Source: Escherichia phage OSYSP
Sequence record: MF402939
Reading direction: 5' to 3' (one strand)
DNA: 64,000 bases
The notes under the pieces were generated by a model that saw only the letters and a program-made list of their open reading frames with translations, was not told the DNA's origin and did no database searches. Positions 10,411-60,737 of the stretch are shown here, piece by piece. The position numbers and the translations under genes were made by a program. The stretch's first letter is position 1, and each line of letters opens with the position of its first letter.

Positions 10411-11297
10411 GTAGAATAACAGAACTACTTGATCTGAAAGGCATTGAATATAAAGACACAGGTGGGGACATCCTCATCTGTTGTCTCAATCCAGATCATG
10501 ACGATAAACACCCAAGTTTGCGTATTGACCCTGAAACAGGTATTATGCACTGCTTGAGTTGTGGCTTCGGTAAAGGTATACCGAGCATTTACCATTATTT
10601 TAATGAGACTCAGTACCGACAGTCCCCAAGGCTATCGCAAGTACGTAAAAAGATTTCAGAGATTAGGAATGGATCAACGAATCTTGCAATTCCTGAATCT
10701 GCTTACCTTTTCGAAGGTGATTTCCGAGGTATAAGTTCTAAGACCTTGAAGAAATATTTTGCTTTCCAACACCAAGCAGACTGGGAAGGCAGAATTGTAT
10801 TCCCAATCACAGATGCTGTTGGACGCAATATCCTATTTTTGGGTCGTTCTATAAACAGTTCTGCCCCTCCTAAATACTTAGTAAAACCAAAACAAGTTTC
10901 ACCGCCAATTTTTCCTGTACGATATAATACTCCAGTCCTTATTCTAGTTGAAGGCATCTTTGATATGCTGAACCTAGAGGATAATGGTATAGACTATGCT
11001 TCTTGCTGCTTTGGTACACATCAGTTTACTTCGGATAACATTGCAGATAAGTTCAGTCCTTATATTATCGCCGGTGTAAAAGTTGTTGTTATCTTACTAG
11101 ATAATGATGCTTCTGGTAATAAAGCTGCCCAGGCTCTAGCAAAATTAATTCGTACAAAAACACGTTTAACACCTGTAGTTGCTAACTTCTTACTTCCAGA
11201 GGGTAAGGATCCTGGTGATTTAAATAAAGAAGAAGTCGATACGTTAGCAAAACGTATTGAAATTTTAGTTGCTGAATCACTTAAAGATTTGGTATAA
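10407..11297 (+). CDS. DNA primase (zinc-ribbon plus TOPRIM)
   Basis: CxxxxH...CxxC zinc motif and TOPRIM-like EGIFD / LLDNDASG motifs. Confidence 0.75.
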   Translation: MSRITELLDLKGIEYKDTGGDILICCLNPDHDDKHPSLRIDPETGIMHCLSCGFGKGIPSIYHYFNETQYRQSPRLSQVRKKISEIRNGSTNLAIPESAYLFEGDFRGISSKTLKKYFAFQHQADWEGRIVFPITDAVGRNILFLGRSINSSAPPKYLVKPKQVSPPIFPVRYNTPVLILVEGIFDMLNLEDNGIDYASCCFGTHQFTSDNIADKFSPYIIAGVKVVVILLDNDASGNKAAQALAKLIRTKTRLTPVVANFLLPEGKDPGDLNKEEVDTLAKRIEILVAESLKDLV

Positions 11298-48023: not shown

Positions 48024-48215
48024 ATGGTTGGTTATGCACAAACTATAAAATATTTTAAATACCACACTTATAGGAGCATGAAAGATATGTCAAACAAAAG
48101 AAAGAGTAGGCGCGGAGAAGTGTACGATAGTTGGATTAATAGTTTTGGATTCGGAACTATCCTATTCTTTATTTTCGTAGGTTTTTGGTTAGCAGCTATG
48201 GCGGGGTGGATTTAA
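48024..48215 (+). CDS. Small membrane protein with C-terminal transmembrane helix
   Basis: ORF track; hydrophobic C-terminus (ILFFIFVGFWLAAMAGW). Confidence 0.45.
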   Translation: MVGYAQTIKYFKYHTYRSMKDMSNKRKSRRGEVYDSWINSFGFGTILFFIFVGFWLAAMAGWI

Positions 48216-48322
48216 TGGAATGGGTAATTATTGCGTTGCTAGGGATTGTGATTATTGGGCAATGTATTTTAGATAATCACTTAGCTAGAATTGAAACTTT
48301 ACTAACGGAGAAACGTAAATGA
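48215..48322 (+). CDS. Unannotated micro-ORF (about 35 aa, MEWVIIALLGIVIIGQCIL...), single transmembrane helix
   Basis: Hand translation; start overlaps the previous stop (TAATG) and its stop overlaps the next start (ATGA). Confidence 0.35.
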   Translation: MEWVIIALLGIVIIGQCILDNHLARIETLLTEKRK

Positions 48323-48513
48323 TGGAAGTAGTAGCTACACTAATAGTAATACTAGTCTGGGCAACTTTCATTGTTTCTTATAACGCGTATGTTCGCCTAA
48401 AAACTCTAGAGGCCCAGGTAAAGCAGCAACAATTTGCACTAGAAAAATTAGTAGAGCTTCAACGCTGTGATAGTACCCGTATTCTGCAAATTGAGAGGGA
48501 ATTAGATGTTTAG
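48319..48513 (+). CDS. Small membrane protein (transmembrane helix plus coiled coil)
   Basis: ORF track; hydrophobic N-terminus. Confidence 0.45.
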   Translation: MMEVVATLIVILVWATFIVSYNAYVRLKTLEAQVKQQQFALEKLVELQRCDSTRILQIERELDV

Positions 48514-48751
48514 TATTATAATTGCTTTTATTATCGGGATACTCACGGGAGTTTTCGGAATGACTGCGGCAATCAACAAGCATCGTAAATATATTGCGGA
48601 AGTATCGCGGGAGATTGCGGAAAGGGAGCGGAAGTTTGATGAGAAACGTGCGGAGTTCGAACGAGAGTGGTCGGACGGTTCTCGGGCGTCGCGGAAGAGA
48701 TTCCGTGAGTTCAGACCAGAATACAGGTTTGATGACCCTTCTATGCGCTAA
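48506..48751 (+). CDS. Small membrane protein (N-terminal transmembrane helix, charged Arg/Glu-rich tail)
   Basis: ORF track. Confidence 0.45.
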   Translation: MFSIIIAFIIGILTGVFGMTAAINKHRKYIAEVSREIAERERKFDEKRAEFEREWSDGSRASRKRFREFRPEYRFDDPSMR

Positions 48752-48854
48752 TTTGACTTTTGCCAATTTCTTTGGATTACGTACGCGTGGGTGTGTCCAG
48801 TGGCCCCCCAGATGAGAATGAGTCTCATTACCGCCTGGTACTTAGCAGGCTAAT

Positions 48855-48887
48855 AGTCCCGGCATGTTATCATTACACACCGGGACT
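48855..48887. other. Stem-loop (AGTCCCGG ... CCGGGACT) next to the ATGAGAATGAGTCTCAT and TTAGCAGGCTAA motifs
   Basis: Inverted repeat read from the sequence. Confidence 0.4.
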
Positions 48888-48903
48888 ATTTCAACTTTAA
48901 TTA

Positions 48904-49680
48904 CTACGCAACTTTTAATTTCTCAATATATTGTTGCGGGCTGCAACTATATTCTGCGCGTTCTTCTTCGGTCATACCTTCCCAACATAATTGCAGGCGG
49001 TCGGCTAGGAACTGATAATCATTATCATCCTCAAGAGATTCATCGATAAAGGTTTCACCTATCAATGTAACCCCAATCGATAGAATATCGTTAACGGCTT
49101 GTGCGTCCAGCGTTTTAAATCCGTATGATGCCGCCGCTGATAGCACGCCTTTATGATCATCAATCATCGTGAAATCAGCGTTCGGATATAATTGTTTAAA
49201 TAACTCAAAGTAATGGCTTTTATAAATAGCGTCTTTGCTGTGGTATATTTCGCTAACTTTATCAGCCTCAAAATATTTGTGTAGTGTATCGCGGGAAAAT
49301 ACACGGATATTACTATCCCCACGCCCTCGCAATCCTTGTTTACGCAAATAATAATAATCCGACTTGCTCATCAGTCGAGCGGTGCAAATAATGTTTAATG
49401 TATTTGCGTCATTCATGCACTGGCGCATATATGTAACAAGGGGCAATAAAGTATCTTGCATTATTAAATCATGTTTGCAGGCTTCATTTTTATACTTATT
49501 TAAATCTAAATTGCCCTCGCTATCAAAGCAAGGCGCTACACGATGGAAAGAATTAATGATAGTGCCGTCCAGATCCCAAATCATGACGCGGGAAATATGC
49601 GGGAAATTACGGGTAATATTCATTTTAACTTGATTCATTTTGTTACGTTCTCCATTAAAGGGATTTAGTTTATCCAGCAT
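48904..49680 (-). CDS. dmp: HAD-family 5'-deoxyribonucleotidase (Dmp-like); true start possibly at 49638
   Basis: HAD motif I (IWDLDGTI); position next to the A1-like gene. Confidence 0.6.
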   Translation of the reverse strand: MLDKLNPFNGERNKMNQVKMNITRNFPHISRVMIWDLDGTIINSFHRVAPCFDSEGNLDLNKYKNEACKHDLIMQDTLLPLVTYMRQCMNDANTLNIICTARLMSKSDYYYLRKQGLRGRGDSNIRVFSRDTLHKYFEADKVSEIYHSKDAIYKSHYFELFKQLYPNADFTMIDDHKGVLSAAASYGFKTLDAQAVNDILSIGVTLIGETFIDESLEDDNDYQFLADRLQLCWEGMTEEERAEYSCSPQQYIEKLKVA

Positions 49681-49718
49681 TGCCCGCTATTTATCAGCGG
49701 GCAATAATAAATCAACTA

Positions 49719-50111
49719 TTAAAGACCATAAGCCAACGCATCAGCGATAAAACTAATATCTTCACCTGATACGCTGGAACGAATCCCCGCACAAGTATAT
49801 ACTTTTGCGCTGATCAATTGATCATCGAGGCAAGCGGGGCAAGGCGCGACAACTGCAAAGGCTAGGCCGGATTTTACGGCGTCGATGATAATCGTTTCTT
49901 GTTTCACAGTATCAACATAAACACCTTTTGCTTTAATATGGCTGGTTAGTTTACCTTGCATATATGCAAAGGTAGTAACCTGCAAAGCGTCATTAAAATC
50001 TAATAGGTCATCAATAACGTGCCCCGCCTCGACGTGGTAACGTTCACCATTAGAATAAACCAGAACAATTGAGGACTGAGCGCGATCGAATGGAATATTT
50101 TGCTTTTTCAT
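49719..50111 (-). CDS. Hypothetical pre-early protein (130 aa)
   Basis: ORF track. Confidence 0.5.
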   Translation of the reverse strand: MKKQNIPFDRAQSSIVLVYSNGERYHVEAGHVIDDLLDFNDALQVTTFAYMQGKLTSHIKAKGVYVDTVKQETIIIDAVKSGLAFAVVAPCPACLDDQLISAKVYTCAGIRSSVSGEDISFIADALAYGL

Positions 50112-50149
50112 ATTTATAAAACTCCAATTAGTTTAATAATGGATTTAAT

Positions 50150-50407
50150 TTATTTGATAATAATCTGCATCTGGTACGGCGTTAATTCACCGTTTACGGG
50201 TAAATTATTATCGCTCAGCCACTCATAAAAAGCGTCATCGTCATCAAAAGGAACAATATCGTTATCACGGGAATCGACGGAAATAATACCATCCGTATTA
50301 GTTTTGGCGGCTAGGATAGGCCCGAAGCTGTAAACTTTATCAGATTCCATTTCATCCGGTGAAATGAATACTTTTTCGTCTAATGTTTTGGGAAGAGTAA
50401 CTTTCAT
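50150..50407 (-). CDS. Small strongly acidic protein (85 aa); DNA-mimic / anti-defence candidate
   Basis: Large excess of Asp/Glu over Lys/Arg, including a DDDD run. Confidence 0.45.
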   Translation of the reverse strand: MKVTLPKTLDEKVFISPDEMESDKVYSFGPILAAKTNTDGIISVDSRDNDIVPFDDDDAFYEWLSDNNLPVNGELTPYQMQIIIK

Positions 50408-50462
50408 TTAATTTAGCTCCTATAATAGCGGCTATATTTCAAGCCGCTAGGGTATTAATTAT

Positions 50463-52127
50463 TTACGCGAAAAATTTACCGTTTTTAAAGTCGATCAAAG
50501 TGCGCTGACCGTTTGCATAGGTAATAACATGCGTTTGCGTCCAGCTTGACGCGCCAACGTTGTAACCCATGTCCAGACTACCAGCTACGCCAGCGGTATA
50601 TACCCCGCCGTAAATGCTTGCCGTATGAGTATGCCCCGTGTTTAATTTGCCCAATTTCTTAAACTGTTTAGGATTGCCACGGCTGCCGTTAATGCCATTG
50701 TGACCGTGTACGCCGCACTCGATGCCTGCAATTTTAAATGATTGGTCAGTTGTTAGGAAAATGGCGTTAAATTCACAACCTGCAACCTTACGCAGCGCAT
50801 AATCAAGCACGTTGAAAGTATCGTCATGATCACCGATTGCCGCGTAAATTGCAGCATTTAGGCGGTGATATAGTTCCGCGTTTGCGGGATCGTCTTTAAT
50901 GTTAGCATTACGATCATCAAGCCAACGGGATAGCGCTAAATCGTGGTTTGATTCCACGATGATTGTTTGAGAAAAATCGCGCTCCATTGACTCCAGCACG
51001 CGCCCCGTATCGATGAGATCATCCAGAACCTTATCACGTCCGGCGGCGTATTGTTTTGCTAGGAATACACCCGAAGCGCGGTTGTGATGGTTGCGGGATG
51101 TAAAATCATGCACGTCATGAATAAACTGATATTTAGGCTTGAGAATATCAAGCAAGCTATTTTCGCCAGCCCATGACGCAACGGCGCAATCGTCATCTAA
51201 TTTTTCGGCGTGAATATCGCCATATTGCAAGCCTAAAACATGCCCCGATGTTTCATAACATCCGGCGGGAGTGGCGCAAATATTCAAATCGTAAAACACG
51301 CCGCTTTCGTCCATCGTTTCAAGCTGGCGAACAAAAAATTCTCCGTCTTCGTCAAACTCAACAACAAGCGCACCGAAATTATGCAGCGCCTCGGCCTTTT
51401 GTCCTGCTTTCTGCTGGATGTAATTTTTTAGGGTTGCCGTTCCAGTTGAATACATACGACGCACTACTTCACCTTTTAAAGCTGGCACGCTTTCGGCGGT
51501 AATTTTAGCGTGACCAATTGCCAGACCTTCCAGATTAAGCGCCGTTGCAGTTTCAGCGAATCCAGAAAGCGGATAATCTGCGGTTGGCAAAACGTTAATT
51601 TCAGCCATGAAAGCAAAACGGCGGTTATTTAAAAACACGTTTTTATTGCAGATATATTTGTCAAATGCGGAATCATATTTTATTCCTTCTGCACCCTCGC
51701 CATTTTGAAAACCGTTTTTGTTATAAATAAACTTGCTAACCAGCAAATCAGCGCCGATATATTTAGCAAATTGCTCCAGTGAGGCTAAAAAGTTTTTATG
51801 CGGGAAAGTATTATTCTGAATCGACGTAATAATAAAGCGTTTACCCTGCTTTACTTCCCATTGCTCAACCGTGCTAGAAACAATCCCCGCCGCTTCTGGA
51901 CGCTCATCGTTTTTAATGGCTTTTGCTACTTTCGCCGCTTTCGGTTTAGCTGGTTTATTTGCTTCCAACCAGTCGCAGATAGCGGTCGAGTGTTTTGTTG
52001 TATCGTAGACCGCTTTTGATATATCGTCGCAGACCTCCAGTTTAGTAGCGCGCAGACGTTTACCATAGAAATTAAAGTCAGCGGCCATTTTCAGGATAAC
52101 GGTTTGTTTTTCTGCGGAAATAATCAT
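50463..52127 (-). CDS. A1: A1-like pre-early protein with metallophosphoesterase domain (554 aa)
   Basis: Phosphoesterase motifs (GDIH, SNHD, GHNG, GHTH) in the C-terminal half; size close to T5 A1; adjacent to the A2-like and dmp-like genes. Confidence 0.65.
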   Translation of the reverse strand: MIISAEKQTVILKMAADFNFYGKRLRATKLEVCDDISKAVYDTTKHSTAICDWLEANKPAKPKAAKVAKAIKNDERPEAAGIVSSTVEQWEVKQGKRFIITSIQNNTFPHKNFLASLEQFAKYIGADLLVSKFIYNKNGFQNGEGAEGIKYDSAFDKYICNKNVFLNNRRFAFMAEINVLPTADYPLSGFAETATALNLEGLAIGHAKITAESVPALKGEVVRRMYSTGTATLKNYIQQKAGQKAEALHNFGALVVEFDEDGEFFVRQLETMDESGVFYDLNICATPAGCYETSGHVLGLQYGDIHAEKLDDDCAVASWAGENSLLDILKPKYQFIHDVHDFTSRNHHNRASGVFLAKQYAAGRDKVLDDLIDTGRVLESMERDFSQTIIVESNHDLALSRWLDDRNANIKDDPANAELYHRLNAAIYAAIGDHDDTFNVLDYALRKVAGCEFNAIFLTTDQSFKIAGIECGVHGHNGINGSRGNPKQFKKLGKLNTGHTHTASIYGGVYTAGVAGSLDMGYNVGASSWTQTHVITYANGQRTLIDFKNGKFFA

Positions 52128-52223
52128 ATTAATAAAACTCCATTAAAGGGATTAAAAACGTTTGTTATTGGCAAATATTGCCAAATATAACGCCTTGAAT
52201 AATAGGCGTTATAATTTGCAACA

Positions 52224-52421
52224 TTAATTTAAAGGCATAAGGCTAGAACTAACACCACAAGCAACGGCGGCAATAAAACAAATCAGACCTAAACGCTTTG
52301 CCAATTTAGACTTACGTTTAAAATAATATGAGTCTAAATCATTTTGAAAATAAGCGAATAATAACGAGGCCGCCATAATAAATAAGCCTAGAATGAGGGA
52401 TTCAGTAGGGTAAAAGATCAT
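52224..52421 (-). CDS. Small two-helix membrane protein (65 aa)
   Basis: ORF track; two hydrophobic segments. Confidence 0.4.
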   Translation of the reverse strand: MIFYPTESLILGLFIMAASLLFAYFQNDLDSYYFKRKSKLAKRLGLICFIAAVACGVSSSLMPLN

Positions 52422-52477
52422 TTTAAAACTCCAGTCAAAGGGAAATTATAGTGGGGAATATTCCCCACTAATTAAAT

Positions 52478-52885
52478 TTATTCGCCTGCGGCTTGTTTTA
52501 CTTCATCGGCAACGCCTAACAGTTGCGCCACGGCGTCCAGTGTTTCAAGTTTTGCACTTTCCAGACTTGCCAGATCATCGGCGTCTTTGATAATGCCGGA
52601 ATCAATAGCATGTTTAGCGATAACGCGTACATAGTGAGCTTTGCGGATTGAGCTACCGCCGCCAACTTTGCGCGGCTTATCGCTTTTCTGATACGCTTTC
52701 GCGCTGGTCAATTTTGACCGAACGGATACGGGAGAAGCCGCGCCCACTGCTTTTGCAATCTCTTTTAAACCGTAGCTATTTGCGAAATCTAAACCGTTTT
52801 CATTGATTAACTGCTGATACATGGAAACGGCTTTTTGGGTGTTTTCTTCATTCCAAGCAAATTTTGCGGTTTTAACGTTAGTCAT
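52478..52885 (-). CDS. A2: A2-like pre-early DNA-binding protein (135 aa)
   Basis: Size and position next to the A1-like gene; basic segment. Confidence 0.5.
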   Translation of the reverse strand: MTNVKTAKFAWNEENTQKAVSMYQQLINENGLDFANSYGLKEIAKAVGAASPVSVRSKLTSAKAYQKSDKPRKVGGGSSIRKAHYVRVIAKHAIDSGIIKDADDLASLESAKLETLDAVAQLLGVADEVKQAAGE

Positions 52886-52983
52886 GGTAAAAACTCCTAT
52901 TAGTTTAATTTAAGGGATAAGATTAACATAGTGTTAATCATTATATTCCCCATATTTCAGAGGAATATAAAGTTAACACTAAA

Positions 52984-53235
52984 TTATAACACAGCTTCCC
53001 ATTTTTCGTTACGCTGTACAACCTTTACAACGTCGCCGGATTTAACGCGAACGCTAAAAACGGTTTTGCCGTTGTTACTACGTTCATTTTCAGCGTATAC
53101 CGCGTCGATTGTATCAAACGGCATAAGCGCCGCACCTTTAATACGTTCGGCTTTTCCGGTTAGTTCATCCGTTTTAGTAACGAAAGGAATAAAAACGGAT
53201 TGACCAATTTTAGGCGCGGTAATAACGTTTTTCAT
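52984..53235 (-). CDS. Hypothetical pre-early protein (83 aa)
   Basis: ORF track. Confidence 0.45.
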   Translation of the reverse strand: MKNVITAPKIGQSVFIPFVTKTDELTGKAERIKGAALMPFDTIDAVYAENERSNNGKTVFSVRVKSGDVVKVVQRNEKWEAVL

Positions 53236-53462
53236 AATATAAACTCCTAGTTATTTGGGGATTGTTCCGCATTACCTGCTAGAAAGTAGCAGGTAATAAG
53301 CAACAATCCGCTCACCGCTATAATCAATTTAAAGAACTCCATGCAGGCCGCTATATCCCAGTTAGGGGGCGGGACACATTATGGTAAGTGCCGACCGTCA
53401 GATTTTATCAAGTTATCGCTCTTATCGAACTGAGTACATCTTAAAGCCTATCGGCTAGGTTG

Positions 53463-53666
53463 TCAAACAATTTTTTGCAGTTTTTTATAATTCTCTTTCA
53501 AGTCAATCATAATATTTCGCCAGATCATTTCTAAACCTTGCTGGCGGCCTTTCTTGTACTGCGTGAATCGGTATTTTACCGATCTTTGCGCTACTGTCAA
53601 CAAATTTTTTGTTTTGCTGTCCAGTGCCTTGCTAGGTTTACCAGTGATCAATAAAGTTTGTTTCAT
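53463..53666 (-). CDS. Small basic protein (67 aa), possibly DNA-binding
   Basis: ORF track; Lys/Arg-rich. Confidence 0.4.
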   Translation of the reverse strand: MKQTLLITGKPSKALDSKTKNLLTVAQRSVKYRFTQYKKGRQQGLEMIWRNIMIDLKENYKKLQKIV

Positions 53667-54091
53667 ATCTGCGATTCCTTATAATGTATAAGTTTACCGC
53701 CGATAGACTTTAAGATGTACCCAATTTTTAAAGAGCGCGGCGGTAAACTTCCCGCCGTGTAGTTCGTCATTGCCGCCCTACGAGATAAATAATAAGGGAT
53801 TCACAAAAATGGCGCAACCTTATTTTTGTAAAGAAACGTAAAGACAAATGCCACCGGACACCGTGCGGCGACCTGGGCGCGACGCACTAAAATTAAAAGA
53901 AACGGGCGCGCGAATACCACAAAACATAGCAGATAGGCAAGTAATTTTTTCATTTATATTTGCTTTGCCCTACTTGACAAAATCTAAAAAACTCGTGGTA
54001 GCGATAAACGAGGGTAGGCAATGCAATGGCATGGCTAAAAACTTCATCGCGTTCTAGGGCGTTTTAGGCGCATTCTAGCCTTGTTGATAAC

Positions 54092-54534
54092 TTATCCCCA
54101 GAAGCAAAAATGAAATTTTCCTAGTTATCCACTTGACTTTTATTTTCCAGTGGATAACTACTTATTTTATAAAATAAATTAATTGACTTTTATTTGTTAG
54201 TATGCGTCGGAAAGATAGCAGACTAATAATTGCTAGGATGATAATCATGCTGGTGGATTGTAACGGCTTAAATTATTAGCAGACTATTAATCACGGAAAA
54301 TCTCATTAGCCAACTAACTATTTCATGATATATAATATACTTATAAATTAAGGAGAAATAATAATTATAAGAAATAATAGCTACAGTAAATATTAACTAT
54401 AAGAAACTATCGGCCTAAGTGAGAACCACTATCATTTAAGTTATCCACAACGTTATCCACAGCACAAAATGATTTGACATAATAGGCGGTGATATAAGGA
54501 CTTTTACACAGACTTATCCACAGCTTATCCTACT
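54092..54534. promoter_or_regulatory. DnaA-box cluster in the divergent intergenic region (perfect TTATCCACA at 54441, 54453, 54514; variants at 54092, 54125, 54150 inverted, 54526)
   Basis: Direct match to the 9-mer DnaA box consensus. Confidence 0.7.
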
Positions 54535-54549
54535 GTATAAATATACAAG
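54508..54549 (+). repeat. Left arm of a 42-bp inverted repeat (ACAGACTTATCCACAG..TATCCTACTGTATAAATATACA), with DnaA box and -10-like TATAAAT
   Basis: Reverse complement of 58209-58250, identical except 2 central bases (hand-aligned). Confidence 0.8.
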
Positions 54550-54815
54550 GTAAAAAGGTAGTGTTAACAACTGCAATCAATTTTAAGCGGCCTAAAACGC
54601 TTTCTAACGAGCTAAATGCGGTGGGGTAATATTAAAGTAAAGTCTTCACCCGTCGCCCTGGTGGCTTCACTGTGTTTTGCTCTTTATTGCACCGCTGCGC
54701 GGTTAGCATAAAACTAGGCGCTAGGCAAGGAAAATAAAAAGGTAAAATAATATTTGCCCCTAGAAAGAAAATACCTTTATCATTCACTCACCGATTAACG
54801 AGGGAGGCCGAACAA

Positions 54816-55808
54816 ATGAGGCTTTATAAACCAGATAACGCAACCGTCTTAAAAGGTGCATTGCGCAACCTGCTGGATGGTAGCAGAACAACCAGCATTA
54901 AACATTTTGTTTTCAATATTGAAACACTTCATCGTAATTTTCTTGATGATTACGATGCTTATAATATGAATAGTTTTCTACCGTTATATAATCAAGGGGC
55001 AACGCTTGTTTTATATAATCAGGAATCTCACTTGCTTACTAGTCGAGGGCCAGATACTGATTTTATTATAGTGAAAGGCAGTACAGTAAAAGCCTATGAT
55101 GCGGGGGCGGGCTTAGAAGTTTTCACGATAGAAAATTATGAGCCTTATGATAAGGATCTTTATGACGTAGAAAATTTTCTCGATTCATTTTGGCGTTATT
55201 TATCAATTGGGTGGAATCGATCAGATTATCACGGGTATCGTTTTGCGGCTATAATGGCTTTTGATGATAACGGTAATTTTTTGCTACCGTCGGAATTATA
55301 CCCGTATGTATATAATGATTTAATAGAGGAGGCTGGTTTTACTTTCTGGAAAGATGAAGATCAGCCTATTGACAACACGGAAAAACATGCTGTAAATTCT
55401 AACACTCAAAGCGTTAACACTCAAACTACTGAAAATAAAGGGAAAAATACTATGACCAAGATCGCTAACATCGTTGCCGCTAATAAATCCGCTGTTGTAA
55501 ACGCTGCAAAACTGGAAGCGGGTAAAATTGCACTGACTCAAATCACGAAAGTAGCGGCTAAAAAACCGCCGTTTATTATCAAGGGTTATATTGATACGCC
55601 GATTGGTCGGGTAGTGATTGCCAACCTGCTGAGTGTAGCGGTTGACCAGTACGCCCCGAGTAACCAGAAAGCGAAAGCGGTAGCAGGAGCGGCTATGGAA
55701 GCGGCAATGCTAGAAATGGTGCAAAGTTTTAACATCGCTGAAATGATCGATGAAATGGTAAAAGGTATCGATATTTCTACTTTCACCGTTAACAACGAAA
55801 GCGAGTAA
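54816..55808 (+). CDS. Hypothetical pre-early protein (330 aa)
   Basis: ORF track; GGAGG Shine-Dalgarno upstream. Confidence 0.6.
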   Translation: MRLYKPDNATVLKGALRNLLDGSRTTSIKHFVFNIETLHRNFLDDYDAYNMNSFLPLYNQGATLVLYNQESHLLTSRGPDTDFIIVKGSTVKAYDAGAGLEVFTIENYEPYDKDLYDVENFLDSFWRYLSIGWNRSDYHGYRFAAIMAFDDNGNFLLPSELYPYVYNDLIEEAGFTFWKDEDQPIDNTEKHAVNSNTQSVNTQTTENKGKNTMTKIANIVAANKSAVVNAAKLEAGKIALTQITKVAAKKPPFIIKGYIDTPIGRVVIANLLSVAVDQYAPSNQKAKAVAGAAMEAAMLEMVQSFNIAEMIDEMVKGIDISTFTVNNESE

Positions 55809-55872
55809 TAATATTAAGCGGGGATTGTTACCCCGCTTTAATGTTCCCTTGTTAATTAATAGGAGGCTAATT

Positions 55873-56367
55873 ATGTCAGAAGAAAAATATGGCTTCTCAC
55901 TGGGAGAAGTGAGCACGGCTAAACACGATATGATCATTTTGGTCGATTGTCATACTGGCTATTGCGGAGAAGGCTGGACGGAGGAACATTTTGTTCCAGC
56001 TGGCTGTAATCTGGACGCTTTCGCTCAGGAAATGGCTGTTGATAATGCTTCTCGTTTCGGTAGCGATGGCTATGAAGACGAGGAAACTGGCGAATGGTAT
56101 GAAAATGAAAACGTATACGCTAGTCTTTATCATTATCAATTAAGTAAATCCGGCGCATATGTAAACGGCGGCGATCCTATTAATTCCATCATGAGATTAA
56201 TTATTAAACATGGTGGCGTCGAGATAATTGATAACAAAGCGGTAATATACGCAAACCGATTAAAACAGCTTGTTTATATTCCTGATAATACCCGATGGGA
56301 TGAATATGCTGTTTTGCATGACGAATTGAAACGATGTTTCAATATTGAATCCTTACAAGTAGTCTAA
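55873..56367 (+). CDS. Hypothetical acidic protein (about 164 aa, start at MSEEKYG)
   Basis: AGGAGG Shine-Dalgarno 6 nt before ATG at 55873. Confidence 0.55.
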   Translation: MSEEKYGFSLGEVSTAKHDMIILVDCHTGYCGEGWTEEHFVPAGCNLDAFAQEMAVDNASRFGSDGYEDEETGEWYENENVYASLYHYQLSKSGAYVNGGDPINSIMRLIIKHGGVEIIDNKAVIYANRLKQLVYIPDNTRWDEYAVLHDELKRCFNIESLQVV

Positions 56368-56472
56368 TGTAAAGTTTTGTAAAGGTCGCCTTTTATGGTG
56401 GCCTTTTTTGTTATAATGCTTTTACACCAAAACGGTGGATTGAAAATTTTCCCAAAAATTTGGAGGCTTAAA

Positions 56473-56703
56473 ATGGTTGCATACTCTTCTGCTAGTCATC
56501 TGTTTACCGCGCAAGGCTGGGTATCTAATCGCGTCATCATTCATGAAATGGTGCAGGAGTTCGGCATTGCTAAAACTTACACTACCATTCAGGAACTATA
56601 CAACGCCGATAAAATCGATCAGCAAACGGCTGGCTTTTTGCTGGATACCCTGAAGGCGGAACATTGCACCAAAAAACAAGCCGCTAAAATTGTTTTAATG
56701 TAA
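56473..56703 (+). CDS. Hypothetical protein (about 76 aa, start at MVAYSS)
   Basis: GGAGG Shine-Dalgarno before ATG at 56473. Confidence 0.5.
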   Translation: MVAYSSASHLFTAQGWVSNRVIIHEMVQEFGIAKTYTTIQELYNADKIDQQTAGFLLDTLKAEHCTKKQAAKIVLM

Positions 56704-56749
56704 TTAATAACGGGGCGTTATTTTCGCCCCGCTAACTAGGAGAATGAAA

Positions 56750-56899
56750 ATGGTTATTTTTCGAGCTATTCTGGCAGGTATCTTGGGCGCTATTTTATCG
56801 TTGTTTGCAATAGCTTTCGGTGTTCACGCCGTTATTGTCGGCGCGGGTATCGCCGTTTTTTCTTATCTGCTGGGCTGCATGATTAGTAAAGGAGAATAA
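56750..56899 (+). CDS. Unannotated hydrophobic micro-protein (49 aa, MVIFRAILAGILGAILSLFAIAFGVHAVIVGAGIAVFSYLLGCMISKGE)
   Basis: Hand translation; AGGAG Shine-Dalgarno; stop lies 2 nt before the next ATG. Confidence 0.5.
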   Translation: MVIFRAILAGILGAILSLFAIAFGVHAVIVGAGIAVFSYLLGCMISKGE

Positions 56900-56901
56900 A
56901 A

Positions 56902-57114
56902 ATGATCCGCAACGTTTCTCTTGCTCGTTCGAAAGGCTTTAAGCTGGTGGACGTTAACACGTTCGAGCGTGAAGATTGTAAAATCGAATATGTAGCGCGG
57001 AATAAAAACGCCTTTCGTGTTACCGAGAAAAAATTCGATAAGCGCGGCAACGTGGTCGCTGAAACGGTTAAACATTTTGCCACCTTTTACGCTGCGTTTC
57101 GTGGGGTACTATGA
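56902..57114 (+). CDS. Hypothetical basic protein (70 aa)
   Basis: ORF track. Confidence 0.5.
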   Translation: MIRNVSLARSKGFKLVDVNTFEREDCKIEYVARNKNAFRVTEKKFDKRGNVVAETVKHFATFYAAFRGVL

Positions 57115-57236
57115 AAAGCGTTATCATTATTAGCCTTGCAATGGTTGGCGGTTTTACCGCCACCTTATTTAAAAATGATCCCCTTTTACTGGGGATTTTT
57201 ATGCTTTTATCTGGCTATCTGATTGGGAGGTTATAA
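57111..57236 (+). CDS. Unannotated hydrophobic micro-protein (41 aa, MKSVIIISLAMVGGFTATLFKNDPLLLGIFMLLSGYLIGRL)
   Basis: Hand translation; ATGA start/stop overlap with the upstream gene. Confidence 0.5.
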   Translation: MKSVIIISLAMVGGFTATLFKNDPLLLGIFMLLSGYLIGRL

Positions 57237-57237
57237 A

Positions 57238-57582
57238 ATGGTAATTTATGAAGGCAATCGTTTTGTTGCTAATTGCCGTCCTGCATTGCTAGCAAATTAC
57301 TTAAATCAGCTTTCACCAGCTTATAAGGGCGTTATTAATATTTATGAGGGCAAAGTGCATTATAAGGTTAATGCGGTCGTTGCCCGTGAACTAGCGTTTC
57401 AATTTTTGACCTTTGCATCTTGTGACGTTCAGGTTATGGGTGAGGCGTTAATTGCAGAAAATGAAGATGATTTTATTAACATTTTTCGCAAGATATGCAC
57501 CGAGCGCCTGATCATGAAAGGCGCTTATATTCAATCCACTGCGGATAGTATTGAAACAGCGTTTCGAAAGGTGGCGCAATGA
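57238..57582 (+). CDS. Hypothetical protein (about 114 aa, start at MVIYEG)
   Basis: GGGAGG Shine-Dalgarno before ATG at 57238. Confidence 0.5.
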   Translation: MVIYEGNRFVANCRPALLANYLNQLSPAYKGVINIYEGKVHYKVNAVVARELAFQFLTFASCDVQVMGEALIAENEDDFINIFRKICTERLIMKGAYIQSTADSIETAFRKVAQ

Positions 57583-57737
57583 AAAAGTTTTTAATAGCTG
57601 GCATGTTTCCGTTGTTGCCTTATGTAATTTGCTGGGCTTTATATGCTCATGGTGCTAGTGTTCCCGGTGTGGCTTCATTTGGTGTATCGGCGGGCTTTCT
57701 AGCTGGACTATTGGCAAGCGTATATTTACGCAAATAA
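57579..57737 (+). CDS. Unannotated hydrophobic micro-protein (52 aa, MKKFLIAGMFPLLPYVICWALYAHGASVPGVASFGVSAGFLAGLLASVYLRK)
   Basis: Hand translation; ATGA overlap with the upstream gene. Confidence 0.5.
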   Translation: MKKFLIAGMFPLLPYVICWALYAHGASVPGVASFGVSAGFLAGLLASVYLRK

Positions 57738-57756
57738 TTAATAACGGAGCGTTATT

Positions 57757-57951
57757 ATGAGCAATAAAATTGTTGTAACCAAAATCAGTACAATGGTTGA
57801 TGTTTTTTACGTGCCCGATACGCCGGAGAATCGGCGAGCGGTCGAGCGTGGCGAGTATGATAAAGTGATTTATGATCACGATGGTTACTATCAACATTTG
57901 GTGGATTCCTACGGGGAGGAGGAAAAAATCACGCATCGACTACCAGACTAA
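57757..57951 (+). CDS. Small acidic protein (64 aa)
   Basis: ORF track. Confidence 0.5.
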   Translation: MSNKIVVTKISTMVDVFYVPDTPENRRAVERGEYDKVIYDHDGYYQHLVDSYGEEEKITHRLPD

Positions 57952-57992
57952 TAATCACGGGGCGCAACTACCAGGGAGTGCCCCCAATTCTC

Positions 57993-58087
57993 AAATGAGA
58001 ATCATTCTCATTTGACTGCGCCCGCGATGGTTAGCCTGCTAATGATTAGGGTGTTACGTGTCGCCTTGTGTGATCGTTAGCAGGCTA
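57993..58087. repeat. Palindromic elements: AAATGAGAATCATTCTCATTT and a 12-bp inverted pair TTAGCCTGCTAA / TTAGCAGGCTAA
   Basis: Read from the sequence; related motifs occur at 48812-48853. Confidence 0.7.
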
Positions 58088-58208
58088 ACTAATTTTTAAG
58101 CCTCCTCCAATTTTGCCCTTGTTTTAGTACCCCCACCAAAATTAAACGCGTTAGAATGCGATCTAGGACGTTTTAGCGGTATACTAGAATTATTCACTAC
58201 ATAGGAAT

Positions 58209-58250
58209 ACTGTATATTTATACAGTAGGATATCCTGTGGATAAGTCTGT
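58209..58250 (-). repeat. Right arm of the 42-bp inverted repeat (reverse orientation), includes DnaA box TGTGGATAA at 58236; a second box at 58309
   Basis: Hand-computed reverse complement matches 54508-54549. Confidence 0.8.
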
Positions 58251-58334
58251 TAATAACGCCTCAAAATGGCTAGGATTCTGTCAAATCAAATCGTGCTGTT
58301 AATAAGTCTGTGGATAACTTAAATAACAGTGTTT

Positions 58335-58510
58335 CTCACTTCCATTCTTAAATGAGAATCATTATCATTCGCAGTCCACTGTCTAACCGATAATCATTTC
58401 CTTTCTTAAATGAGAATCATTTCACTTTTTGAATAGTTCTCATTTCCTTTCTTAAATGAGAATAATTATCATTCGCATTCCACTTCTTAAATGATAATGA
58501 TTCTCATTCA
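58335..58510. repeat. Cluster of at least 4 copies of TTCTTAAATGAGAAT(C/A)ATT in direct and inverted orientation
   Basis: Read from the sequence. Confidence 0.75.
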
Positions 58511-58515
58511 AAGTC

Positions 58516-58533
58516 GCAGGGCAATTGCCCTGC
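58516..58533. repeat. Perfect 18-bp palindrome GCAGGGCAATTGCCCTGC
   Basis: Self-complementary by inspection. Confidence 0.85.
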
Positions 58534-58538
58534 GCTTT

Positions 58539-59141
58539 TGTGCAAATCCGACATTGCTCCACGGGTGTTACGTGCGGGCATGTATGTGCGAATCCGACAA
58601 TTTTTGGTAGTGTGCGAATCCGACCCTAAAAACTTTTGTGATGTGCGAATCCAACAATGAATTTTCCCAAAAACTCCAGCAATCACGAACTGCGTTCGAA
58701 TCCTGTGGGATATGTGCAAATCCGACACGGTTTTTCTAGGATTAAGATGTGCAAATCCGACAAGATTTTTGTGACTTCGATGAGAGGGTGTGTGATTGTA
58801 TAGGTTTGAGGAGAAGATGAGAGAGCGAGAAAAGTTTGGGAGGCTAGAAGGATGCGGGCGCAGGATTGGTGCGGAGCACCTGATTTGCGGGGATTTTGGG
58901 GAAGAGTTGAGATAATTTGGGAAGATTTGAGATAGGTGCAGAAAAAGTAAAATTTTATTAGCAAAATGGGGCAAAATAGCTTGACAAGTGAAAATTTCTG
59001 TGGCTCTAAAAACTCAGGCAATCATGGGCCTTCGGCCCGAAATAATGCTGCCATTTTCAAGAGATTATATGTTCCTAAAAACTTAGGCGTTTGTGCAAAT
59101 CCGACCATAAATTTCTAGGAACACAATGTACAAATCCGACA
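58539..59141 (+). repeat. Iteron-like array: 8 same-orientation copies of 15-bp TGTGC(G/A)AATCCGAC(A/C) at 58539, 58585, 58611, 58642, 58713, 58748, 59092, 59127
   Basis: Direct repeats located by hand; copy 4 carries CCAACA and copy 8 TGTACA variants. Confidence 0.8.
58790..58945. repeat. Purine-rich (G/A) strand-asymmetric tract with short GAGATA / TTGGG repeats
   Basis: Read from the sequence. Confidence 0.6.
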
Positions 59142-59169
59142 GTAATTTCTGGAAATGTGTTTTCAAAAA

Positions 59170-59240
59170 ATGTCTCCTAGAAATAACCGCCCTCCCTATA
59201 ACCGCCCTGTATTAACCGCCCTGTATTAACCGCCTATTGC
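59170..59240. repeat. Short tandem repeats (A/T)TAACCGCC(CT), 4 copies, flanked by TTCTAGGAA / TTCCTAGAA inverted motifs
   Basis: Read from the sequence. Confidence 0.65.
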
Positions 59241-59662
59241 TAGAGTTTCTAGGAATATGAAAACCGCCTGAGTTGACTAGAGAAACAGATTTAAAGTTTA
59301 ATGTAAACTCTAGAGTTAGTGCTCAACTATTCCTAGAAACTTAGGAGTCTAGAAGAAAGTGTTGTGCCATCCTAGCAGATGAGCGGCAACAGGTGTATCA
59401 TCTTGAACACAAATATTGCCTTTAAATATTTTTAGTTATTTAAAAGTAAATATACCCCCATTTCATGAGAGCTTACTCGTGGGGCGCGTGAGTATTACGG
59501 AAGACTTAGTAATTAGATCTATACTCGTGCTGTCGCAACGTATAGACGTAATACTAAGTGTAATAATCATCGCCCCTAGAGTTCAAAACAAGAGTTGTTT
59601 TTAATCTATGAGATTATTATAACATGTGCCGCAATGAGTTGTCAAGAAGATTTTGTTAATGT

Positions 59663-60019
59663 TTATACATCTCCTTCGAAATTGGTATTGGGATCGTAAA
59701 TCTTTTTGGCTCCTGTATTTAATAGGAATCGTTCTGCAAGTTGTGGGTGAATATCAAAGAACTCTGTACATCCTTCGAATCCCTTTAAATTACAGCGGTA
59801 TTTCTTAAAGTAGATATGAGCAGCGGCTTCTAGATCTCTAGGGTTATGGGTTTCATAGATTCCATACACATATAAATCGTCAAAACCTCGATAGACTATC
59901 TTATCTAAGTTTAGAGTTTGAATCCTATTATGTGGATTCATGCTAATACCGATCTTTGTTCTCTTAGGGATCTTTGTCAGATCCCTGTTCGCAAGAATAT
60001 ATACTTTATATAGTGACAT
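59663..60019 (-). CDS. T5orf172 / GIY-YIG-like domain protein (118 aa)
   Basis: Pattern VYILAN ... KIGIS.NP..R resembles the T5orf172 (GIY-YIG superfamily) signature. Confidence 0.45.
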   Translation of the reverse strand: MSLYKVYILANRDLTKIPKRTKIGISMNPHNRIQTLNLDKIVYRGFDDLYVYGIYETHNPRDLEAAAHIYFKKYRCNLKGFEGCTEFFDIHPQLAERFLLNTGAKKIYDPNTNFEGDV

Positions 60020-60737
60020 TCTTTCTAGCCTTTAGATAGATTCCTTTAGATGCTAAATAAATATATGTAGCAAGGAATGAAGATGTAGATCCTGTTTCTT
60101 CAAGAGTAATAGATCCCTTTGCATAACGCTTGGTTCTAGGAGCCTGGTTAAGCACAAGCGCAGTGAGACTACCTAATCCTAGAGCATCCATTAGACGTTT
60201 GAAGGAGTCCTTTTCATCATGGATAGCGTATAGGATATAATCTTCCGCTGTAGTAAGTTCTATGTCACGATGATGTGCCACTGCAATCCGTGCTACTACA
60301 GCTCCAATCGTTCTATAAATATCTTCAAACGTGATACTAGTTTCAAATGCTAACGCTGGAAGATGATCGAACTTACATTTCTTAGGCGGAATGTATAATT
60401 GTTCTGGATATGCTTCTAATGCTTCTCTAGCGGATGTTTCTCTATAAGCCGGGAGAGGTTCATCAATGATAACATGGATATAGTTTCCCATGTGACCTTT
60501 AGCAGTGGGGTCTAAAGACTTGAGGAGTTTATTCATATCAACGTAAGAATAAGCAAGGTCGGCTTTTGCTGCTTTGTTATCATACTTAATCTTACCACCC
60601 TCCCATCTAGCTGGGAACATTTCGCAAACAAACATTACTGCATGTTTCTCTTCAGTGGTTAAATCAGAGAAACAGCGATGATCAGCCCCCTTAGCGAGGG
60701 CTAGAATATTCTTAAACTTTACAGCCAAATCTTTCAT
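60006..60737 (-). CDS. Hypothetical early protein (243 aa)
   Basis: ORF track; coupled to neighbours. Confidence 0.55.
   Translation of the reverse strand: MKDLAVKFKNILALAKGADHRCFSDLTTEEKHAVMFVCEMFPARWEGGKIKYDNKAAKADLAYSYVDMNKLLKSLDPTAKGHMGNYIHVIIDEPLPAYRETSAREALEAYPEQLYIPPKKCKFDHLPALAFETSITFEDIYRTIGAVVARIAVAHHRDIELTTAEDYILYAIHDEKDSFKRLMDALGLGSLTALVLNQAPRTKRYAKGSITLEETGSTSSFLATYIYLASKGIYLKARKNVTI

What the first reader, a model, noticed from the sequence alone, without database searches (positions are those of the whole stretch)
58790..59350. Purine-rich strand-asymmetric tract plus AACCGCC tandem repeats and TTCTAGGAA palindromes
Downstream of the first six iterons is a 150-bp stretch that is almost entirely G/A on the plus strand. 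It is followed by four tandem (A/T)TAACCGCC(CT) units and several TTCTAGGAA / TTCCTAGAA copies in both orientations. Such asymmetry and repeat density is unusual for coding DNA and consistent with a structural DNA element (injection arrest, nick site or origin).
Basis: seen in the sequence. Interest (0 to 1): 0.45.

Follow-up and report, generated by a model that had tools for sequence, protein, structure and literature searches.

The report
T5-type terminal-repeat boundary, non-coding repeat region
The flagged stretch is the right-hand part of the conserved non-coding repeat region already described in phage T5, and it straddles the point where the 10-kb terminal repeat, and so the packaged DNA molecule, ends; it most likely helps define and cut genome ends.

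Summary
The window is a T5-like phage (Demerecviridae). The finding lies in a 1.7-kb non-coding block, 86-92% identical to T5 "Repeat Region 3" (annotated as the injection stop signal).

**Observation:** real but overstated. The tract is 70% purine, not "almost entirely G/A". Its true signature is C depletion: GC skew is +0.73, the most extreme value in the 64 kb. Four tandem TAACCGCC units and three TTCTAGGAA copies are confirmed and exceed chance.

the right boundary of the direct terminal repeat falls inside the finding, at 59006|59007 (CTGTGGCTC|TAAAAA). Three independent end determinations map there: the T5 record end and PhageTerm ends in two other genera. The G-rich tract is therefore the last ~240 bp of virion DNA. 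The AACCGCC and CTAG repeats lie just outside the repeat.

**Conservation:** a similar layout recurs in Klebsiella and Vibrio relatives whose sequence has otherwise diverged. The order is iterons, G-rich tract, TTGACA, cut, palindrome, iterons, CTAG repeats.

**Rejected for this stretch:** coding sequence, nick site (the T5 nick maps to 58535/6), G-quadruplex, triplex, Chi and Rfam RNA.

**Best reading (inferred):** a cis-acting module for genome-end formation and packaging. An injection-stop role and Rho-type transcription insulation remain rivals.

The element is already known; interest is modest.

The parts
58539..58761 (+). Six direct 'DRD' iterons TGTGC(A/G)AATCC(G/A)AC at 58539, 58585, 58611, 58642, 58713 and 58748. 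They lie inside the terminal repeat, upstream of the tract (context for the finding).
   Evidence: Regex positions; repeat families D2/D3; named DRD in Davison 2020. Related iterons flank the boundary in KpGranit, phi 3 and Ceto.
58770..59006 (+). G-rich, C-poor strand-asymmetric tract (A 30%, C 8%, G 35%, T 26%). It is the last ~240 bp of the direct terminal repeat.
   Evidence: Composition. Most extreme GC skew of the window (+0.73). The same composition is found in T5, KpGranit and phi 3 and Ceto. Not coding.
58896..58934 (+). Two tandem 19-20-nt units, TTGGGGAAGAGTTGAGATA and TTTGGGAAGATTTGAGATA, with a weaker copy at 58806. T/G-run units also occur in the tracts of KpGranit, phi 3 and Ceto.
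   Evidence: Family D6; phi 3 repeats TTGGGGAAAGTAAAATTGGG; KpGranit G-runs spaced 8-12 nt.
58858..58864 (+). GCGCAGG, a match to the extended T5 nick consensus, but on the strand T5 does not nick. Not conserved in Epseptimavirus, so probably not functional.
58981..58986 (+). TTGACA hexamer 20 nt inside the repeat boundary. It is conserved in 26/26 T5-like relatives and in KpGranit. Ceto has TTGACA 14 nt before its record end.
   Evidence: No acceptable -10 element was found by the promoter scan.
58998..59012 (.). Terminal-repeat right boundary (the right physical genome end): CTGTGGCTC|TAAAAA, cut between 59006 and 59007.
   Evidence: The T5 record ends ...TTCTGTGGCTC. Right-repeat copies in six records end at window 59004-59007. 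PhageTerm repeat ends of KpGranit and Sw2 map to 59006. The surrounding block 58950-59049 is 94-100% conserved.
59026..59038 (.). Palindrome GGGCC-TTC-GGCCC, 20 nt outside the boundary and invariant in 26 relatives. KpGranit has a different palindrome (CACGGTG-ACA-CACCGTG) at the same place. Ceto has a near-palindrome TTGAACCGGTGTCAA.
   Evidence: It is not followed by a T-run on either strand.
59092..59140 (+). Two further DRD iterons (59092-59105 and 59127-59140), outside the terminal repeat, with TTCTAGGAA (59113-59121) between them.
59176..59268 (+). CCTAGAAAT, then four tandem TAACCGCC units (59184, 59199, 59213, 59227), then a fifth AACCGCC (59262). The first two units (ATAACCGCCCTCCC and ATAACCGCCCTGTAT) are present in most of the 25 relatives, with single-base variants in some. 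Copies three to five vary.
   Evidence: KpGranit keeps ATAACCGCCCTCCC and AACCGCCCTGTAT about 400 bp right of its repeat end.
59244..59341 (.). Inverted repeat AGTTTCTAGGAATA / TATTCCTAGAAACT (perfect 14-nt arms, 70 nt apart) with nested CTAGAG/CTCTAG. The interior varies among relatives.
   Evidence: Pair I9. As a DNA strand it folds at -17.3 kcal/mol, z = -4.0. Interior identity is 0.3-0.56 with indels.
59330..59409 (.). Highly conserved 80-bp block beginning TTCCTAGAAACTTAGGAGTCTAGAAG. Function unknown.
   Evidence: Identity 0.94-0.97 across 26 sequences.

Best explanation
**Shown.**
- The finding is the right half of the conserved non-coding 'Repeat Region 3' of T5-like phages.
- It straddles the right boundary of the ~10.2-kb direct terminal repeat at 59006|59007.
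- The G-rich, C-poor tract (58770-59006) is the last ~240 bp of that repeat. In the virion it occurs twice: once internally, and once as the extreme right end of the DNA, with the G-rich strand ending 3' at the terminus.
- The palindrome, two more iterons, the AACCGCC array and the CTAG palindromes lie just outside the repeat, before the first leftward early genes.

**Inferred mechanism.** This is the cis-acting module for genome-end formation and packaging.
- Replicating DNA is expected to carry the repeat-to-unique junction.
- Terminase would cut at the near-invariant CTGTGGCTC|TAAAAA site.
- Sequence-specific proteins would position the cut by binding the same-orientation iterons on both sides, the AACCGCC array and the palindrome.
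- T5 ejects its left end first. Under the last-in-first-out rule, the right end is then packaged first, so the G-rich tract would be the first DNA threaded into the capsid, a position like cosB next to cosN in lambda.
- Which proteins bind, and what the strand asymmetry itself contributes, is unknown.
For: **Orthology.** The region is 86-92% identical over 1.8 kb to T5 and more than 140 T5-like records (alignment). It matches the repeat inventory of Davison 2020 (bioRxiv 10.1101/866236), who notes that the region overruns the repeat by 270 bp.

**Boundary.**
- The T5 record ends at ...CTGTGGCTC.
- Six right-repeat copies end at window 59004-59007.
- PhageTerm ends in Sugarlandvirus KpGranit and Epseptimavirus Sw2 map to exactly 59006.

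**Conservation.**
- It peaks at the boundary: 58950-59049 is 0.94-1.00 identical in 26 sequences.
- In Klebsiella phages only window 58913-59013 remains alignable by BLAST; most of those hits span 58935-59012.
- The block is present in 12 of 12 relatives, while flanking genes are mosaic, with aligned fractions as low as 0.08.

**Layout conserved where sequence is not.** KpGranit and Ceto show iterons, a G-rich C-poor tract, TTGACA, the cut, a palindrome, then more iterons. phi 3 shows the iterons, the tract and CTAG repeats.

**Variability at the cut.** The three bases just before the cut are the most variable in the 40 bp around it, including 1-nt insertions.

**Left boundary.** It also appears sequence-specified: TTACACATGAAGGTGTGT is shared by T5 and KpGranit.

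**Last-in-first-out.** This is the generally accepted rule (abstract of PMC10287942).
Against: - There is no direct evidence that terminase or any other protein binds here. No experimental mapping of a T5 packaging site was found in the literature searches.
- I found no motif shared by the left and right boundaries, so a single recognition sequence is not evident.
- The termini of this particular phage are inferred by homology, not measured. Two records place the repeat end elsewhere: Kenya-K38 28 bp earlier, and chee158 about 210 bp earlier.
- Nucleotide identity of the block among close relatives is no higher than that of flanking genes where those are present.
- The T5 packaging direction is inferred from the last-in-first-out rule, which has been challenged in vitro for lambda (PMC10287942).
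- The strand asymmetry has no demonstrated role in any terminase system that I know of.
Confidence: 0.5

Rival explanations
1. The stretch is part of the injection stop signal, or of the signal that restarts transfer. Its DNA features would hold the genome after the first 8% has entered, or would be the sites where the pre-early proteins A1 and A2 act to resume transfer.
For: - The T5 GenBank record annotates iss as 9140-10149, which maps to window 57943-58936 and covers most of the tract.
- The whole repeat region is treated as the iss region in the literature, and its mechanism is still unresolved.
- Geometry (speculative): the nominal shear point (AY587007 coordinate 9618) maps near window 58500. 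A DT57C tail tube of 40 rings x 41.84 A is 167 nm, about 490 bp of B-DNA (PMC10713586). If shear occurs at the cell surface, the DNA at the neck and portal during the pause would be near 59000, close to the boundary module.
Against: - Davison places the likely iss left of the shear point, at the DnaA-box inverted repeat and the DRE repeats (window ~58200-58510).
- The tract starts ~290 bp right of the shear point.
- The AACCGCC and CTAG part lies outside the terminal repeat.
- The 7.9% shear estimate carries an uncertainty of several hundred bp.
- The deepest conservation centres on the repeat end, which an arrest function does not predict.
Confidence: 0.2
2. The strand-asymmetric tract is a transcription insulator between convergent units. 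Leftward transcripts entering from the early region would be C-rich and G-poor (C 35%, G 8% over 237 nt), the composition of a Rho loading (rut) site. Rho would then stop antisense transcription into the pre-early genes.
For: - Composition.
- Composition, rather than sequence, is what is conserved in KpGranit, phi 3 and Ceto, as expected for rut sites.
- The tract lies between rightward pre-early genes and leftward early genes in the window, T5, KpGranit and phi 3.
- A perfect leftward sigma-70 promoter lies at 59645->59616. Only a weak terminator-like hairpin (59472-59454) separates it from the tract.
Against: - No transcript data were examined.
- This reading does not explain the iterons, the near-invariant boundary block, the palindrome or the AACCGCC array.
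- It does not explain why the tract always ends at the genome terminus (T5, Sw2, KpGranit, Ceto).
- It is compatible with, rather than exclusive of, the end-formation reading.
Confidence: 0.15
3. The stretch is a replication origin or priming element: iterons plus DnaA boxes plus a G-rich tract that forms an R-loop with rightward transcripts.
For: - There are eight same-orientation iterons and DnaA boxes at 58236 and 58309.
- An AT-rich stretch lies at 58940-58975.
- The G-rich non-template strand would favour R-loops for rightward transcription (inference only).
Against: - The DnaA boxes lie 500 bp outside the finding.
- No initiator gene is adjacent.
- Davison cites electron-microscopy mapping of T5 origins near the genome centre and argues against a replication role.
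- Two terminator-like palindromic hairpins (58030-58089 and 58515-58534) precede the tract on the rightward strand.
Confidence: 0.05
4. The stretch is a site of the specific single-strand nicks carried by T5 virion DNA.
For: GCGCAGG at 58858 matches the extended consensus shared by the four annotated T5 major nicks, PuPu|GCGC(A/G)GG. That heptamer occurs only three times in the 64 kb counting both strands.
Against: - The match is on the plus strand, whereas all annotated T5 nicks are on the minus strand. The minus-strand context (CCT|GCGCCC) fails the purine requirement.
- The motif is replaced by GCGCATG or GCAGC in many relatives.
- The true nick orthologue is at 58535/58536.
Confidence: 0.03

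Closest known systems
Phage T5 'Repeat Region 3' / injection stop signal region (Heusterspreute et al. 1987; Wang et al. 2005; Davison 2015 and bioRxiv 10.1101/866236)
   Same: It is a direct orthologue. Identity is 86-87% over the whole block. The order of elements is the same: DnaA-box inverted repeat, DRE repeats, hairpin with the nick site, DRD iterons, repeat end, more DRD iterons, short repeats. The position is the same, between the last pre-early ORF and the first leftward early gene.
   Different: This phage has four or five AACCGCC units where T5 has three. It lacks the ninth DRD iteron that T5 carries inside the CTAG inverted repeat. In the papers I could read, no function is assigned to the right-hand part, and neither the G-rich tract nor the conservation of the cut site is discussed.
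Phage T7 concatemer junction (terminal repeat flanked by arrays of short repeats; pac sequences; RNA polymerase pausing at the junction). Recalled from my own knowledge of Dunn & Studier 1983, Chung & Hinkle 1990 and Zhang & Studier 2004; not checked here.
   Same: Both have precise direct terminal repeats whose boundary is flanked by arrays of short same-orientation repeats and an inverted repeat. Both have a promoter-type element near the junction: a TTGACA hexamer here, phage promoters in T7.
   Different: The repeat is 10 kb here against 160 bp in T7. The phages are unrelated and share no sequence similarity. T5 uses host RNA polymerase. No experimental link between these sequences and packaging exists for T5.
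Lambda cos (cosN nicking site flanked by cosB and cosQ)
   Same: The layout is analogous: a short conserved cut site, with protein-binding repeats on the side that would be packaged first and further elements on the other side.
   Different: T5 ends carry long terminal repeats, not 12-nt cohesive ends. No IHF-type or R-site motifs were looked for or seen. The analogy is positional only.
Iteron/DnaA-box plasmid and chromosomal origins
   Same: Both have multiple same-orientation 14-15-nt iterons, nearby DnaA boxes and an AT-rich stretch.
   Different: There is no adjacent initiator gene. The DnaA boxes lie outside the finding. T5 origins were mapped elsewhere, according to Davison.

Membership tests
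T5 Repeat Region 3 / iss region | Sequence homology to T5 coordinates ~9140-10550 (AY543070) | tested here: met
   Window 58790-59350 aligns to T5 10003-10551; identity is 86-87%.
T5 Repeat Region 3 / iss region | Non-coding block at the right end of the left terminal repeat, between pre-early ORFs and leftward early genes | tested here: met
   ORF map; T5, K38 and HdH2 annotations; ORFs not conserved.
T5 Repeat Region 3 / iss region | Same ordered set of repeats (DnaA-box inverted repeat, DRE, DRD iterons, short repeats beyond the repeat end) | tested here: met
T5 Repeat Region 3 / iss region | Arrests DNA transfer after the first ~8% of the genome | not testable with these tools
   Needs blender or shear experiments. 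The nominal shear point maps ~290 bp left of the finding.
Direct-terminal-repeat boundary / terminase cut site | Coincides with the physical end of virion DNA | tested here: met
   Met by homology only: T5 record end, six right-repeat copies, PhageTerm ends of KpGranit and Sw2. Not measured for this phage.
Direct-terminal-repeat boundary / terminase cut site | Cut-site sequence conserved across relatives | tested here: met
   CTGTGGCTCTAAAAA is identical in T5, the window and KpGranit. The block is 94-100% conserved in 26 sequences.
Direct-terminal-repeat boundary / terminase cut site | Bound and cleaved by the phage terminase | not testable with these tools
   No biochemical data were found.
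T5 single-strand nick site | Consensus 5'-N-Pu|GCGC-N on the nicked (minus) strand | tested here: not met
   The only GCGC in the finding (58858) has a pyrimidine before it on the minus strand. It fits only on the plus strand and is not conserved.
Iteron/DnaA-type replication origin | DnaA boxes plus an initiator gene plus an unwinding element at the site | tested here: not met
   There is no DnaA box within 58790-59350 and no initiator gene nearby. Literature places the origins mid-genome.
G-quadruplex / triplex (H-DNA) / Chi | Four G3+ runs with loops of 7 nt or less; a long mirror-repeat homopurine run; GCTGGTGG | tested here: not met
   The window and T5 tracts have no G4 motif, no purine run longer than 10 nt, and no Chi within one mismatch.
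Known structured RNA (Rfam) | Covariance-model match | tested here: not met
   Only two chance-level hits (E = 0.11 and 0.33), both outside the finding. None in KpGranit or phi 3.

The most novel reading that the evidence does not exclude
The stretch contains the packaging and end-formation site of T5-like phages, for which I found no mapping. Its layout would be conserved across Demerecviridae subfamilies: iterons on both sides, a G-rich strand running 3' to the terminus, a sigma-70 -35-type TTGACA 14-20 nt inside the cut, a near-invariant cut site, and a palindrome just outside. Host RNA polymerase or another TTGACA-binding factor might mark the junction for terminase, much as T7 RNA polymerase pausing does at the T7 concatemer junction. 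The same module might also be the DNA lying at the neck and portal during the two-step-injection pause.
Probability: 0.3. Interest if true: 0.55.

Novelty: already known. Interest (0 to 1): 0.33.

Why it matters
T5 is a classic model phage, and two of its features remain unexplained. One is how DNA transfer stops after 8% of the genome. The other is how 10-kb terminal repeats are cut and regenerated from replicating DNA. Both questions point to this one non-coding region.

Two results give concrete mutagenesis targets. First, the repeat boundary is a near-invariant sequence. Second, its surrounding layout (G-rich tract, TTGACA, palindrome, flanking iterons) recurs in Klebsiella and Vibrio relatives.

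There is also a practical use. Many T5-like genome records are circularly permuted or carry hypothetical genes called over this tract. The motif CTGTGGCTC|TAAAAA could be used to orient and trim such assemblies.

Tried and rejected
- **Coding.** The minus-strand ORFs 58504-58974 and 58683-59021 and the plus-strand ORF 58966-59118 were tested. The two minus-strand ORFs show frameshifting indels, stops and no codon-position bias in 25 relatives. None of the three matches Pfam or PHROGs.\n- **Known RNA family.** Nothing credible in Rfam.\n- **Promoter at TTGACA 58981.** The scan finds no acceptable -10 element. Overall, promoter-like and terminator-like counts in the region equal shuffle expectation.\n- **G-quadruplex, triplex, Chi.** Absent from the window and T5 tracts. 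A G4 motif exists only in KpGranit, so it is not conserved.\n- **Helical phasing.** Only weak 10-nt autocorrelation: 0.14-0.17 for AA/TT in the window and T5, and 0.22 for GG in KpGranit. Not convincing.\n- **Strand folding of the tract.** Unremarkable, z = -1.4.\n- **Motif shared by the left and right repeat boundaries.** None found by inspection.\n- **Nick site within the finding.** Rejected.\n- **phi 3 as an independent boundary.** Its annotated repeat end falls inside an iteron within a ~105-bp tandem duplication and looks unreliable.\n- **Literature on a T5 packaging site or T7 junction details.** Nothing usable was found. Davison 2015 is not held.

Full report
**What the window is.** The 1.8 kb around the finding matches 446 phage records. 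Nearly all are T5-like Salmonella or Escherichia phages, at 80-95% identity. The 5'-deoxynucleotidase (dmp) gene encoded at 48904-49680 is 100% identical in protein sequence to that of Salmonella phage MET_P1_100_107.

Alignment with T5 (AY543070), Kenya-K38 and HdH2 shows that 57950-59650 is the large non-coding block at the right end of the left terminal repeat. The window also runs continuously from the right end of the unique region into the repeat: T5 110790-112300 aligns to window 48051-49548. So the window comes from a permuted assembly with a single, collapsed copy of the terminal repeat. That copy spans about 48795 to 59006.

**Checking the observation.**
- The tract is real, but it is not "almost entirely G/A". 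58790-58950 is 70% purine with 24% T.
- The exceptional property is C depletion. 58782-58931 has 64 G and 10 C, giving a GC skew of +0.73. That is the most extreme value in the whole window, 4.7 sd from the mean.
- Four TAACCGCC units spaced 14-15 nt, plus a fifth AACCGCC, are confirmed. So are three TTCTAGGAA copies in both orientations. Both motifs are significantly enriched.
- Six iterons precede the tract and two follow it, all in the same orientation.

The right boundary of the direct terminal repeat lies inside the finding, between 59006 and 59007 (CTGTGGCTC|TAAAAA).
- The T5 record ends with ...TTCTGTGGCTC.
- The right-repeat copies of six records end at window 59004-59007.
- Two boundaries determined from sequencing reads with PhageTerm, in different genera, map to exactly 59006. 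These are KpGranit (Sugarlandvirus) and Sw2 (Epseptimavirus).
- Two other records place the boundary 28 bp and about 210 bp earlier. I take these to be less precise.

It follows that the G-rich tract is the last ~240 bp of the repeat. In the virion it is therefore also the extreme right end of the DNA, with the G-rich strand ending 3' at the terminus. The AACCGCC array and the CTAG palindromes lie 180-335 bp outside the repeat, in unique DNA.

**Not coding.** The long minus-strand ORFs (156 and 112 aa) exist because a pyrimidine-rich strand has few stop codons. In 25 relatives they carry indels of 1, 2, 7 or 11 nt, one to five in-frame stops, and no third-position excess. They match no Pfam or PHROG family. 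Several GenBank records nevertheless annotate hypothetical proteins here.

**Conservation.**
- In a 26-sequence alignment the best-conserved segments are 58950-59049 (0.94-1.00; the boundary plus a palindrome GGGCC-TTC-GGCCC), 59170-59209 (the first two AACCGCC units) and 59330-59409.
- 59210-59329 is variable, with changes in copy number.
- The three bases just before the cut are the most variable in the 40 bp around it.
- The block is present in 12 of 12 relatives examined. Neighbouring genes come and go, with aligned fractions as low as 0.08. This agrees with Davison's remark that the region is better kept than the flanking ORFs.
- Nucleotide identity within the block is, however, no higher than in flanking genes where these are present.

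**Deeper relatives.**
- In Klebsiella Sugarlandvirus phages only window 58913-59013 can still be aligned by BLAST, with most of those hits spanning 58935-59012. The layout survives all the same. It comprises ATGTGCAnATCCGAC iterons on both sides, a G-rich C-poor tract, TTGACA, the identical CTGTGGCTC|TAAAAA, a different palindrome at the same offset, and ATAACCGCCCTCCC with AACCGCCCTGTAT further right.
- Vibrio phage Ceto (subfamily Ermolyevavirinae) has iterons, a tract with 10% C, and TTGACA 14 nt before its record end. A near-palindrome follows just outside, then more iterons and CTAG-rich DNA.
- Vibrio phage phi 3 has the same components, but its annotated boundary looks unreliable.
- Tract composition is similar in the window, T5, KpGranit and phi 3: C 8-12% and GC skew 0.52-0.64; Ceto's tract has C 10%.

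**Relation to the literature.** This is T5 "Repeat Region 3" (AY587007 9194-10409). [quoted passage not shown] It is treated as the region holding the injection stop signal. [quoted passage not shown] Neither of these papers assigns a role to the right-hand part, discusses the G-rich tract, or links the region to terminase. Further searches turned up no such link.

- Nick site. The four annotated T5 major nicks share PuPu|GCGC(A/G)GG on the minus strand. The orthologue of the 7.9% nick is at 58535/58536, outside the finding. The single GCGC inside the finding fits the consensus only on the other strand and is not conserved.
- Origin. The finding has no DnaA box and no initiator gene is nearby. 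Published origins are mid-genome.
- Injection arrest. The T5 record's iss feature reaches window 58936, but the nominal shear point maps near 58500, and Davison places the likely signal to its left.

**Mechanism I commit to.** The shown parts are the identity, the position and the conservation pattern. The inferred part is function: a cis-acting module for genome-end formation and packaging.
- Terminase would cut at the conserved site.
- Proteins bound to the flanking iterons, the palindrome and the AACCGCC array would position the cut.
- T5 ejects its left end first. Last-in-first-out is the accepted rule. The right end would therefore be packaged first, which puts the G-rich tract where packaging starts.

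I give this 0.5. The identity and the boundary are near certain; the terminase role is unproven.

**Rivals.**
- A role in the injection pause or restart (0.2). One speculative point in its favour: a 167-nm tail tube holds about 490 bp, which would put the boundary near the neck during the pause.
- A Rho-type insulator (0.15). Leftward RNA over the tract would be 35% C and 8% G.
- A replication origin (0.05).
- A nick site (0.03).

**Other structural ideas rejected.** G-quadruplex, triplex and Chi are absent. Helical phasing is weak. Folding of the tract is unremarkable.

**Verdict.** The finding is a genuine, conserved, non-coding element. It is an orthologue of an already described T5 region, so novelty is low. 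The added value is threefold: the precise placement of the repeat boundary inside it, the near-invariant cut-site motif, and the family-wide layout. Together these make the packaging and injection-stop hypotheses directly testable.

Noticed in passing
window 59440-59650, minus strand: A perfect sigma-70 promoter (TTGACA-18-TATAAT with an upstream TG, 59645->59616) is followed by RNA that folds into a ~100-nt hairpin: -55.9 kcal/mol against -31.6 +/- 3.6 for shuffles, z = -6.8. A terminator-like hairpin follows at 59472-59454. T5-type and Sw2-type relatives carry non-homologous sequences at the same place that fold equally well (z = -6.2 and -6.6). The promoter is also present in KpGranit and Ceto. 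This is a candidate small-RNA or long-hairpin module. T5 has no annotation here and Rfam gives no hit.
   Followed up: partly
window 58515-58536; also 31380 and 18840 (minus strand): The orthologue of the T5 7.9% major nick lies at 58535/58536, at the foot of the hairpin CGCAGGGCAATTGCCCTGCG. The four annotated T5 nicks share an extended consensus, PuPu|GCGC(A/G)GG. Related minus-strand matches occur at 31380 (GCGCAGG heptamer) and 18840 (full consensus) and may be further nick sites.
   Followed up: partly
window ~48794/48795: This is the left boundary of the terminal repeat (GGGTG|TGTCCAGTGG). The sequence just outside it, TTACACATGAAGGTGTGT, is shared by T5 and KpGranit. The left end therefore also looks sequence-specified, but with no obvious similarity to the right boundary.
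   Followed up: partly
window 59004-59006: The three bases immediately before the repeat boundary (CTC, ATC, CCC, or with one extra base) are the most variable in the 40 bp around the cut, within an otherwise highly conserved ~100-bp block across 26 relatives.
   Followed up: yes
window 59663-60737, minus strand: Two genes next to the non-coding block are present in only about 1 of 12 relatives. The 118-aa product has a T5orf172/MUG113 domain, and homing endonucleases are annotated at this position in relatives.
   Followed up: partly
L020 and L023 (phage H8 and a relative), between window 58631 and 58695: These two relatives carry an extra ~530-580 bp within the iteron array. Its content was not examined.
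   Followed up: no
window 59330-59409: An 80-bp block, TTCCTAGAAACTTAGGAGTCTAGAAGAAAGTGTTGTGCCATCCTAGCAGATGAGCGGCAACAGGTGTATCATCTTGAACA, is 94-97% conserved in 26 relatives. No ORF and no obvious structure explains it.
   Followed up: no
GenBank records of relatives (for example MN218191 6131-6661, MN187969 46959-47489, MH631454 9607-9928): Hypothetical proteins are annotated over the G-rich tract and across the repeat boundary. By the frame-conservation test these are almost certainly spurious.
   Followed up: yes
L046 / L045 (Vibrio phage phi 3, NC_028895): The annotated terminal-repeat end falls inside an iteron within a ~105-bp tandem duplication. By analogy with Ceto and T5, the true end may instead lie after the G-rich tract, near L046 ~1345.
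   Followed up: partly
whole window: Chi sites (GCTGGTGG) are strand-biased, with five on the plus strand (7072, 8394, 17217, 54249, 56943) and one on the minus strand (23419). Under the textbook orientation rule for Chi, the plus-strand sites would be the ones active against RecBCD entering from the right genome end.
   Followed up: no
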